Shown here: piece after piece, positions 12,388 to 13,254 of the stretch
Layout: each line of letters opens with the position of its first letter
Position numbering within the stretch: the stretch's first letter is position 1
Origin: Candidatus Helarchaeota ASGARD archaeon Hel_GB_B
GTDB lineage: Archaea > Asgardarchaeota > Lokiarchaeia > Helarchaeales > HEL-GB-B
Direction of reading: 5' to 3'
DNA: 32,000 bases
NCBI GenBank assembly: GCA_005191425.1
Contig: SUPR01000030.1
Location: forward strand, 4,611 to 36,610
Translations under genes and position numbers: made by a program
The notes under the pieces: generated by a model
Told to the model about the DNA's origin: nothing
The model's input: the letters and a program-made list of their open reading frames with translations, nothing else
The model's database searches: none

Positions 12388-12530
12388 AGAAAAAGGGCAT
12401 AAAAATGTAAATAAATAAGGAAAAAAAGTACGAACAAAAAACAAATTTTTTAAAAAATAAACCAAGGTTTTAAGATAAAAGATAGTTTTAGATGGTATAA
12501 AAAAGGTAAACTAGAAATCAAGGGGAGTCG

Positions 12531-12723
12531 AGAAAATATATTTATGCAGAAGCGATAAGGCTCTTCCGTGTTCGGGATGGGTAACGGGTGTTTCCCTTCA
12601 CCTATGATCGTGATTAAAGTCACAACCATCCTAAGTTCCCATACACTCTCGTAGTATAGTACAGTTAGGACCGCGTGAAGGCTTAATTCGGCGTCTTATT
12701 ACTTCTTTTGCATTATATTTCCT
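12531..12723 (-). other. Processing stem around the 5S gene with outer canonical and inner relaxed bulge-helix-bulge motifs
   Basis: 5' arm AGGAAATATA-ATGC-AAA-AGAAGTAATAAG-AC-GCCG-AAT pairs with 3' arm CGGA-AGA-GC-CTTATCGCTTCT-GCAT-AAA-TATATTTTCT. Confidence 0.85.
12563..12686 (-). rRNA. rrf: 5S rRNA gene, circularly permuted: 3' half 12686-12620, linker 12619-12614, 5' half 12613-12563
   Basis: Minus strand: TTAAGCCTTCACGCGGTCCTAACTGTACTATACTACGAGAGTGTATGGGAACTTAGGATGGTTGTGA-CTTTAA-TCACGATCATAGGTGAAGGGAAACACCCGTTACCCATCCCGAACACGGAAG. The halves total 118 nt. Helices seen: I TCACGATC/GGTTGTGA, II GTGAAGG/CCTTCAC, TCCTAA/TTAGGA, and a GAGA tetraloop; the conserved CCCATCCCGAAC is present. 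Confidence 0.93.
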
Positions 12724-13254
12724 CAAACAGGAAATAAAACGATTTTAAAGGTGTATAGCTTAAATTTTAAGTTATAAATTAAATTAAGATTATAAATTAC
12801 CATAAATAATGAAATTTAAAGTTTTTCTATATAAAAATGAATTATGCAAATTTCAAGTGAAAATTAAATTTTTATGATCAAATGTACATTTTTAAGACAA
12901 ATAAAATAAAAAAAATAAATGGTAAAAGAAATTAATTGGAAAAATATATTAATTTTAGAAGTATTAATAAAAATAATTAATGGGATTTGGAAAACTCCAT
13001 AAATAAAAATAAATTAAGATTATTCGGGGTTAAAGAATTTTTAAAAGATAGATAAAGGCTATAAATATTAGGAAGTTTCAATAGAAATTGGAAAATAATT
13101 AGATAAAATTTAAATTTCACCAAAAAATATTAATGAATAAAAAAGTAAAAAAATTTAAATAAAATAGATTATATGAAAAAAAGAATTAATTTTTAAAAAC
13201 TTATGAAATAAATACTAAAAATCAATTGGTTAAAATAATTGGAGTAAAGTAATA

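What the first reader, a model, noticed from the sequence alone, without database searches (positions are those of the whole stretch)
12606..12627. Helix I is capped by a hexaloop, so the mature 5S may be a covalently closed circle
Seen: the normal 3' end (GGUUGUGA) and 5' end (UCACGAUC) pair over 8 bp and are linked by only CUUUAA, with no tRNA-like or BHB element at this linker. Known: Thermoproteus SRP RNA functions as a circle, and the 5S termini lie at the end of helix I. Inference: after ligation the 124-nt RNA could enter the ribosome with no free ends, or an unknown nuclease opens the loop.
Basis: inference. Interest (0 to 1): 0.6.

Follow-up and report, generated by a model that had tools for sequence, protein, structure and literature searches.

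The report
Loop-capped permuted 5S rRNA, probably circular
The hairpin is the closed end of this Asgard archaeon's only 5S ribosomal RNA gene, which is encoded back half first; over 150 related genomes keep the same short cap, so the working 5S RNA is probably a closed ring, which I found in no paper.

Summary
On the minus strand, GGUUGUGA (12627-12620) pairs over 8 bp with UCACGAUC (12613-12606), and CUUUAA (12619-12614) joins them. This is helix I of a circularly permuted 5S rRNA gene (12686-12563, 124 nt), the only 5S gene found in the genome.

About 157 related Asgard genomes have the same gene order.
- The cap is 4 nt in 136 of them, mostly UUCG, with U at position 1 in 90% and G at position 4 in 97%.
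- Helix I is 99.4% paired, and 6 of its 8 pairs show compensatory changes.
- GC-rich lineages lengthen helix I but still end it in a tetraloop.
- This window's hexaloop is the outlier; its sister species has UCCG.

Bulge-helix-bulge (BHB) motifs flank the gene, and cutting them then joining the ends restores the canonical 5S sequence exactly. Two different break points give the same product. Some relatives carry 30-nt BHB introns inside the 5S gene. The genome encodes RtcB and two EndA paralogues.

I conclude that the mature 5S is most likely (about 0.65) a covalently closed ring that keeps the cap. I found no paper describing this, and Wu et al. 2022 reported that Asgard 5S genes could not be predicted. 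This scan has noted the same arrangement many times on other Asgard genomes.

The parts
12563..12686 (-). Predicted mature, circularly permuted 5S rRNA (124 nt): 3' half, cap, 5' half
   Evidence: Two adjacent RF00001 half-matches. Colinear with normal 5S once un-permuted. Full-length match to the permuted covariance model R1; own sequence was a seed of that model.
12620..12686 (-). 3' half of 5S (loop B 3' side, helix II 3' strand, helices V and IV, loop E, helix I 3' strand), 67 nt
12620..12627 (-). Helix I, strand that carries the 3' end in a normal 5S (GGUUGUGA)
   Evidence: Covariation.
12614..12619 (-). Cap loop CUUUAA joining what are the 3' and 5' ends in a normal 5S. It corresponds to the 4-nt UNNG cap of relatives plus an opened C.A closing pair.
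12606..12613 (-). Helix I, strand that carries the 5' end in a normal 5S (UCACGAUC)
12563..12613 (-). [quoted passage not shown]
   Evidence: alignment.
12686..12692 (-). Inner BHB, leader side: central-helix strand GCCG (12692-12689) and bulge AAU (12688-12686). The predicted cut after the second bulge base makes U12686 the first mature base.
   Evidence: Read. The homologous sites in relatives are canonical: UCCG/CGGA in G001, GCCG/CGGC in G002.
12562..12568 (-). Inner BHB, trailer side: central-helix strand CGGA (12568-12565) and bulge AGA (12564-12562). The predicted cut makes G12563 the last mature base.
   Evidence: Read. Joining gives ...CACGGAAG-UUAAGCC..., the canonical 5S sequence.
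12707..12726 (-). Outer processing stem and outer canonical BHB, leader side: stem 12726-12714, AUGC 12713-12710, bulge AAA 12709-12707
   Evidence: Fold. BHB scan score 10/10. Conserved with covariation in G001 (GUAC/GUAC).
12528..12547 (-). Outer BHB and processing stem, trailer side: GCAU 12547-12544, bulge AAA 12543-12541, stem 12540-12528

Best explanation
The 22-nt hairpin is helix I of the genome's only 5S rRNA gene. The gene is circularly permuted: 3' half, short cap, 5' half. The transcript folds so that leader and trailer pair into two nested bulge-helix-bulge motifs. The tRNA-splicing endonuclease EndA cuts in the bulges. RtcB then joins the 2',3'-cyclic phosphate end (...CACGGAAG) to the 5'-OH end (UUAAGCC...). 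The product is a 124-nt covalently closed 5S rRNA in which helix I stays closed by the cap. The ring, not a re-opened molecule, enters the large ribosomal subunit. Shown here: the permuted order, the capped and covarying helix I, the BHB geometry that restores 5S exactly, the presence of the enzymes, and the conservation across Asgard archaea. Inferred: cutting, ligation, and that the ring is the ribosomal form.
For: (1) It is the only 5S-like locus in the 93.7%-complete genome. In a 151-genome phylum sample, 69 genomes match the permuted model (two only weakly, and both carry a normal gene) and 49 have a normal gene. No family but f21 scores for both, and no genome has a clear copy of each. 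In the own class 127 of 151 genomes match the permuted model, nearly all with one copy.
(2) Cap: of 158 permuted loci, 136 have a 4-nt cap by a strict stem rule. UUCG 73, UUAG 19, UUUG 13, UACG 9, CUCG 7. Position 1 is U in 123/136 and position 4 is G in 132/136, across 62 distinct hairpins. About 7 more are UUCG with one helix mismatch. GC-rich lineages extend helix I to 10-13 bp yet still end it in UUCG, GUAA or GUUA. This is how retained rRNA hairpins evolve, not how spacers evolve.
(3) Helix I is 99.4% paired, with compensatory changes at 6 of 8 pairs. Own versus sister species G001 differ by 5 compensatory pair changes in helices I, IV and V.
(4) The BHB cuts restore canonical 5S exactly. 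The Odin-like G151 junction is a perfect BHB. Two different genomic break points, loop B and loop C, give the same joined sequence. That is expected if the ends are re-ligated.
(5) Canonical 30-nt BHB introns lie inside the 5S gene of relatives (six checked; ~19 genomes have a core ~30 nt longer), and their removal restores the intron-less sequence. 5S precursors in this clade are therefore EndA/RtcB substrates that need ligation. A relaxed BHB insert next to the cap in one genus restores the 8-bp helix plus tetraloop when removed.
(6) RtcB (568 bits) and two EndA paralogues are encoded.
(7) Precedents: circular functional SRP RNA from a permuted gene (PMC4731332); circular 23S in mature archaeal ribosomes (PMC12918454); a 4-nt connector across the 5S ends works in E. 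coli (PMC7283268).
Against: No RNA-level evidence was available here: no read-through across the junction, no RNase R test, no structure. A linear permuted 5S nicked in loop B could also fold and might work. A stable tetraloop could be selected only to help the precursor fold. In this genome the cap is a weak AU-rich hexaloop with a C.A closing mismatch (-7.0 kcal/mol against -13.9 in the sister species), so here it is neither a UNCG loop nor obviously nuclease-resistant. The inner BHB of this genome has a G.A mismatch in the central helix. PMC12918454 states in its background that 5S rRNAs are not processed through circles; that statement rests on species with normal genes.
Confidence: 0.65

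Rival explanations
1. The ring forms but is only an intermediate. An unknown endonuclease opens the cap, and trimming gives a normal linear 5S with free ends at helix I. Permuted tRNA genes mature this way, and so do circular pre-16S rRNAs.
For: Circular intermediates that are re-opened are well known in archaea (pre-16S; P. furiosus 23S, PMC7758197). In this genome the cap is an AU-rich 6-nt loop with an open closing pair.
Against: The cap is fixed at 4 nt with U1 and G4 conserved in about 90% of ~157 genomes, and extended helices still end in stable tetraloops. A spacer that is removed should drift in length, as the leaders and trailers do. No tRNA-like element, no BHB and no conserved flanking motif exists at the cap. 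A compact UUCG loop is a poor nuclease target.
Confidence: 0.13
2. The transcript is cut at the BHB but the ends are not ligated. The ribosome then carries a linear, permuted 5S that keeps the cap and has its termini in loop B beside helix III.
For: A nick in loop B leaves all helices intact. The linear permuted fold is as good as the circular one (-36.7 against -32.0 kcal/mol). Fragmented and permuted rRNAs work in organelles (PMC4267664, PMC9576764).
Against: The fragment between the two BHB cuts has the same topology as tRNA introns and pre-16S/23S, which archaeal RtcB circularises. RtcB is present. Internal 30-nt introns in relatives' 5S genes need ligation. The break point moved between loop B and loop C in close genera with no change in the joined sequence. 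That is easier if the break is sealed.
Confidence: 0.12
3. The locus is a decaying pseudogene or an assembly artefact, and the real 5S gene lies in the unassembled part of the genome.
For: The genome is a 182-contig assembly, 93.7% complete. This copy has a weakened cap and a G.A mismatch in the inner BHB.
Against: The same locus occurs in the sister species and on an independent metagenome contig, and as the only 5S-like gene detected in some 190 further Asgard genomes, including single-contig ones. Own and G001 differ by 5 compensatory pair changes. Loop C and loop E motifs are intact.
Confidence: 0.03

Closest known systems
Permuted, circular SRP RNA of Thermoproteus tenax (Plagens et al. 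2015, PMC4731332)
   Same: An essential, universal structured RNA is encoded as a circularly permuted gene. Its new ends lie in a motif cut by the tRNA-splicing endonuclease and are ligated. The circle is the working RNA. The canonical gene looked 'missing' from the genome.
   Different: A different RNA (5S rRNA, a ribosome component). The distribution covers many families of a whole phylum, not a few species of one genus. There are two nested BHBs here and at least two break points among relatives. Circularity of the 5S has not been shown.
Circular 23S rRNA in mature archaeal ribosomes (PMC12918454) and circular pre-16S/pre-23S intermediates
   Same: BHB cleavage in a processing stem, followed by ligation, gives a covalently closed rRNA that can stay closed in the ribosome.
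   Different: Those genes are in normal order and the ligation joins the native ends. Here the native ends are already joined in the DNA by the cap, and the ligation repairs an internal break. That paper states that 5S is not processed this way.
Engineered cp5S rRNA in E. coli (Huang et al. 2020, PMC7283268)
   Same: The native 5' and 3' ends of 5S are linked by a 4-nt connector, and the molecule is opened at loop C or loop D. Such ribosomes support growth, and the cp5S sits where normal 5S sits.
   Different: It is artificial, bacterial and fused into 23S rRNA, not a free ring. It shows that a helix I cap is tolerated, not that a ring is.
Circularly permuted tRNA genes of Cyanidioschyzon merolae (cited in PMC4267664 and PMC3326292)
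   Same: A permuted gene is processed at a BHB through a circular intermediate.
   Different: The tRNA circle is re-opened at the acceptor stem by RNase P and tRNase Z. No comparable signal exists at the 5S cap.
Permuted mitochondrial 5S rRNA of brown algae (Valach et al. 2014, PMC4267664), and low-level circles of normal 5S in Sulfolobus and Halobacterium (PMC3326292, PMC12558985)
   Same: These are earlier reports of a permuted 5S or of circular 5S species.
   Different: The organellar RNA is a linear permuted molecule without BHB processing. The Sulfolobus and Halobacterium circles come from normal genes, are minor and heterogeneous, and were read as possible degradation products.

Membership tests
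5S rRNA (Rfam RF00001) | Score at or above the 38-bit gathering threshold of the covariance model | tested here: not met
   No hit at gathering threshold. There are two adjacent half-matches of 24 and 19.9 bits. The failure follows from the permuted order.
5S rRNA (Rfam RF00001) | Conserved motifs and five-helix, three-way-junction fold (loop C CCCAUCCCGAAC, loop E AGUA/GAA, helices I-V) | tested here: met
   The motifs are present. The un-permuted 118 nt is colinear with normal Asgard 5S. Helices I, IV and V are supported by covariation. Helix II (GUGAAGG/CCUUCAC) was read by eye.
5S rRNA (Rfam RF00001) | It is the 5S gene of the genome (sole copy, conserved) | tested here: met
   No other 5S-like locus in the genome. 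Permuted and normal forms are mutually exclusive in the phylum sample (f21's two weak model hits carry a normal gene).
BHB-processed permuted RNA genes that give circular RNAs (Thermoproteus SRP RNA type) | Circularly permuted gene with the native ends joined in the DNA | tested here: met
   The normal order is absent from all 287 fetched loci.
BHB-processed permuted RNA genes that give circular RNAs (Thermoproteus SRP RNA type) | A bulge-helix-bulge formed by leader and trailer at the new ends, with cut sites that restore the canonical RNA | tested here: met
   Outer canonical BHB (AUGC/GCAU, AAA/AAA). The inner BHB is relaxed here (CGGA/GCCG with G.A) but canonical in G001 (CGGA/UCCG) and G002 (CGGC/GCCG). 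The junction equals canonical 5S.
BHB-processed permuted RNA genes that give circular RNAs (Thermoproteus SRP RNA type) | tRNA-splicing endonuclease and RtcB ligase encoded | tested here: met
   RtcB 568.5 bits. Two EndA-domain genes, 98.6 and 75.1 bits.
BHB-processed permuted RNA genes that give circular RNAs (Thermoproteus SRP RNA type) | Circular RNA detected (junction reads, RNase R resistance) and functional as a circle | not testable with these tools
   No RNA data were reachable.
UNCG-type tetraloop hairpin | A 4-nt loop with U at position 1 and G at position 4, closed by a Watson-Crick pair | tested here: not met
   In this window the loop is C(UUUA)A, i.e. the hexaloop CUUUAA. The feature is met in the sister species (UCCG) and in most relatives.
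Permuted genes whose circular intermediate is re-opened at the native ends (permuted tRNA type) | A recognisable processing signal at the joined native ends | tested here: not met
   No tRNA-like element. No conserved motif beyond U1 and G4.

The most novel reading that the evidence does not exclude
The ribosomes of most Asgard archaea, the closest known archaeal relatives of eukaryotes, carry a covalently closed circular 5S rRNA with no free ends. It is made from a permuted gene by the tRNA-splicing enzymes. The helix I cap is a permanent, selected part of the mature ribosome, and the genomic break point can move around the ring.
Probability: 0.6. Interest if true: 0.9.

Novelty: new variant of a known kind. 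Interest (0 to 1): 0.78.

Why it matters
5S rRNA is a universal ribosome component. A recent paper still states that, unlike 16S and 23S, it is not processed through circles. A ring-shaped 5S that depends on the tRNA-splicing machinery would be a new way to build a ribosome, and it would occur in the archaeal phylum closest to eukaryotes. It also explains a practical puzzle: 5S genes "could not be predicted" in closed Asgard genomes (Wu et al. 2022), and standard annotation and MAG quality rules that ask for a 5S gene fail on these lineages. The permuted covariance model built here finds the gene in nearly every genome that lacks a normal one. The tetraloop cap, the mobile break points and the 30-nt introns also make this a natural system for studying how BHB splicing lets RNA genes be rearranged.

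Tried and rejected
- **Tandem 5S genes with a short spacer:** rejected. There is no 5' half upstream and no 3' half downstream. RF00001 gives only two half-matches, and the normal order is absent from all 287 fetched loci.
- **Pseudogene or misassembly:** rejected, see the rival explanations.
- **tRNA-like or BHB signal at the cap:** none (and by reading).
- **More close relatives of this species, to see whether the hexaloop recurs:** the metagenome scan found one contig, which matches the G001 locus over the stretch read (UCCG cap). The hexaloop is so far unique to this genome.
- **RNA-derived contigs with the ligated order:** the viral-contig scan found none.
- **Strict automatic BHB scan across leader and trailer:** it recovers the outer BHB of own and G001 and the canonical junction of an Odin-like genome. 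It misses relaxed junction BHBs that lack an inner helix, and it gives many false positives. Those junctions were read by eye.
- **The ~31-nt insert at the cap in one genus (L034, L119, L120, L131):** no canonical BHB. It fits only a relaxed one, so whether it is an intron or an expansion segment stays open.
- **Sigma-70 promoter scan:** not used, because this is an archaeon.

Full report
**1. Observation**

On the minus strand the window reads GGUUGUGA (12627-12620), CUUUAA (12619-12614), UCACGAUC (12613-12606). The arms form 8 pairs, 6 Watson-Crick and 2 G.U, and the hairpin folds at -7.0 kcal/mol. ARAGORN finds no tRNA anywhere in the window. Rfam at gathering thresholds finds nothing. In E-value mode two adjacent half-matches to 5S_rRNA appear. 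One covers 12706-12617 and aligns as the 3' half (19.9 bits). The other covers 12615-12515 and aligns as the 5' half (24 bits). The hairpin arms are the inner ends of these two halves. This is helix I, with the ends of a normal 5S joined in the DNA.

**2. What the locus is**

The predicted mature RNA is 12686-12563, 124 nt: a 67-nt 3' half, a 6-nt cap and a 51-nt 5' half. Cut at the cap and re-ordered, the 118 nt is colinear with the normal 120-nt 5S genes of a sister family, with 74 and 71 identical positions. Loop C (CCCAUCCCGAAC) and the loop E motifs are intact. The genome has no other 5S-like locus (3.54 Mb, 182 contigs, 93.7% complete).

**3. How the ends are made**

Leader and trailer pair into a long stem (z = -3.5) that holds two nested bulge-helix-bulge (BHB) motifs.
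- The outer motif is canonical: AUGC/GCAU with AAA bulges at 12709-12707 and 12543-12541 (score 10/10). In the sister species G001 it covaries to GUAC/GUAC.
- The inner motif has central helix CGGA (12568-12565) / GCCG (12692-12689), which includes a G.A mismatch, and bulges AGA and AAU.
- In G001 the homologous inner helix is a perfect CGGA/UCCG, and in G002 it is CGGC/GCCG.

Cutting after the second bulge base and joining gives ...CACGGAAG-UUAAGCC..., which is the canonical 5S sequence at that position. The genome encodes RtcB (568.5 bits, intact 483-aa frame). It also encodes two EndA-domain proteins. From general knowledge, two paralogues suggest the heteromeric type that accepts relaxed BHBs.

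**4. Relatives**

I built a covariance model, R1, of the part common to all forms: 3' half, cap, and 5' half up to helix III.
- **Own class:** R1 matches full length in 127 of 151 genomes, nearly all with one match. That covers families f1-f4, f6 and f7. Family f5 gives only two weak, partial R1 hits; the three f5 loci inspected show only a 3' half.
- **Family f5:** the two genomes with an RF00001 match (G017, G038) have normal 5S genes of 58-65 bits.
- **Names:** record titles of matching contigs read Promethearchaeota or Promethearchaeia, which are the NCBI names for the Asgard phylum and the Loki class.
- **Phylum sample (151 genomes):** R1 matches 69 genomes, two of them (G168, G202) only weakly and both with a normal gene. 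A normal gene above the Rfam threshold occurs in 49, mainly f12 (25/26) and f17 (17/19). No family but f21 scores for both forms; its two R1 hits are those weak ones. The permuted gene is therefore the working 5S gene of these lineages.
- **Break points:** most genes break after ...CCCGGAA|GUUAAAC, in loop B. One genus and some neighbours break in loop C (...GGUC|CCAUCCGAAC). Each break has its own BHB, and both give the same joined sequence.

**5. The cap, which is the subject of this finding**

Among 158 permuted loci the cap is 4 nt in 136 by a strict stem rule.
- Counts are UUCG 73, UUAG 19, UUUG 13, UACG 9, CUCG 7, UCCG 4 and UGCG 3.
- Position 1 is U in 123/136 and position 4 is G in 132/136, across 62 distinct hairpins.
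- About seven more loci are UUCG with one mismatch in the helix.
- Helix I is 99.4% paired, with compensatory changes at 6 of 8 pairs, concentrated next to the cap.
- Over all 19 modelled pairs, no shuffle of 500 reaches the observed covariation, and sliding the partner columns drops pairing to 29-47%.
- In GC-rich lineages helix I grows to 10-13 bp and still ends in UUCG, GUAA or GUUA.

Retained rRNA hairpins evolve in this way. The leaders and trailers, which are discarded, differ freely in length and sequence.

This window is the outlier. Its sister species has GGC-UCCG-GCC where this genome has GAC-UUUA-AUC. That is one compensatory G-C to A-U change, an opened closing pair (C.A) and an AU-rich loop, so the cap reads as the hexaloop CUUUAA. 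Own and G001 also differ by three compensatory pairs in helix V and one in helix IV. The gene is therefore under structural selection and is not decaying.

**6. Further support that 5S precursors here are spliced and ligated**

About 19 genomes in the class have a core about 30 nt longer. In the six I checked, the extra piece is a canonical BHB intron in the helix IV hairpin, for example GUA-CUGC-AAA-AGU...ACU-GCAG-AAU-UGC. Its removal reproduces the intron-less sequence of relatives exactly. One genus has a 30-31-nt insert in the helix I strand next to the cap. It fits a relaxed BHB, and its removal restores the 8-bp helix plus UUCG or UUUG. An internal intron cannot be tolerated without ligation.

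**7. Mechanism and odds**

The fragment between the two BHB cuts is the 5S itself. It has the same topology as tRNA introns and pre-16S/23S RNAs, which archaeal RtcB circularises. I put ligation at about 0.85-0.9. Given the conserved tetraloop cap and the absence of any opening signal, I put retention of the ring at about 0.75. Together that gives about 0.65 for a ring as the ribosomal form. The rivals are a ring re-opened at the cap (0.13), a cut but unligated permuted linear 5S (0.12), and a pseudogene or artefact (0.03). None of these could be separated with RNA data here.

**8. Literature**

- Full-text searches for permuted or circular 5S rRNA in archaea or Asgard found no description.
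- Wu et al. [quoted passage not shown]
- PMC12918454 reports circular 23S in mature archaeal ribosomes and says 5S is not processed through circles.
- Plagens et al. 2015 show a permuted SRP RNA gene that gives a functional circle through the splicing endonuclease.
- Huang et al. 2020 show that 5S with its native ends joined by a 4-nt connector works in E. coli ribosomes and sits in the normal place.
- Minor circles of normal 5S in Sulfolobus and Halobacterium were read as possible degradation products.

**9. Earlier notes of this scan**

The scan has flagged the same arrangement many times on other Asgard genomes: 92 notes in at least 73 genomes. Two notes say that public RNA data show the joined ring. 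I could not re-test that and did not count it. One later check priced the ring-in-ribosome reading at 35/100. My own figure is higher, because of the cap statistics, the moving break points and the internal introns gathered here.

**10. Verdict**

It is a new variant of a known kind: a BHB-dependent circular RNA from a permuted gene, here for 5S rRNA and across a phylum.

Noticed in passing
L033:268-399 (G019), L012:1465-1596 (G035), L022, L024, L103, L105; about 19 genomes of the class have hits of 131-133 nt: Canonical 30-nt bulge-helix-bulge mini-introns sit in the helix IV hairpin (loop D) of the permuted 5S gene. Removing them restores the intron-less sequence of relatives exactly. I found no report of BHB introns in 5S rRNA.
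   Followed up: partly
L019, L021, L013, L022, L012, L024 versus L023, L031, L018: Close genera use two different permutation break points, loop B and loop C, each with its own BHB, and both give the same joined 5S. The repeated CCGG in the two strands of helix III may let the break point jump.
   Followed up: partly
L034:232-364, L119, L120, L131 (one genus, g13): A conserved 30-31-nt structured insert lies in the helix I strand just 5' of the cap tetraloop. It fits only a relaxed BHB, so it could be an intron or an expansion segment.
   Followed up: partly
Phylum sample; f5 genomes G017, G038, G054: Normal and permuted 5S genes split cleanly by family. f5 sits in the own class and includes a 4.4-Mb single-contig genome; the two f5 genomes with an RF00001 match have normal genes, while nearly all other families of the class have the permuted one. 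Either the order reverted or the permutation arose more than once.
   Followed up: partly
L116 (G101:C109), second R1 hit at 861-1009, 35.9 bits; G064 has a second copy at a contig end (L139): A weak second match to the permuted 5S model lies about 700 nt downstream of the good copy in one genome. It may be a degenerate duplicate with an insert.
   Followed up: no
Other hits are titled Thor-, Odin-, Hod- or Hermodarchaeota. These are probably mislabelled or mis-binned MAG records.
   Followed up: no
window 12741-12780 (minus strand) and 12490-12500: AT-rich TATA-like boxes (TTTATAA, TTTAAAA) lie upstream of the leader stem, and a T-run follows the trailer stem. This suggests an independent transcription unit of about 260 nt. 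It was read by eye only.
   Followed up: no
f4 leaders, e.g. L019, L013 (GUAGCGACUCGCUAC between AACCACA and GCGC): The leaders of the Loki-type genes hold a conserved small hairpin between the long AACCACA/UGUGGUU processing stem and the junction BHB. Its role is unknown.
   Followed up: no
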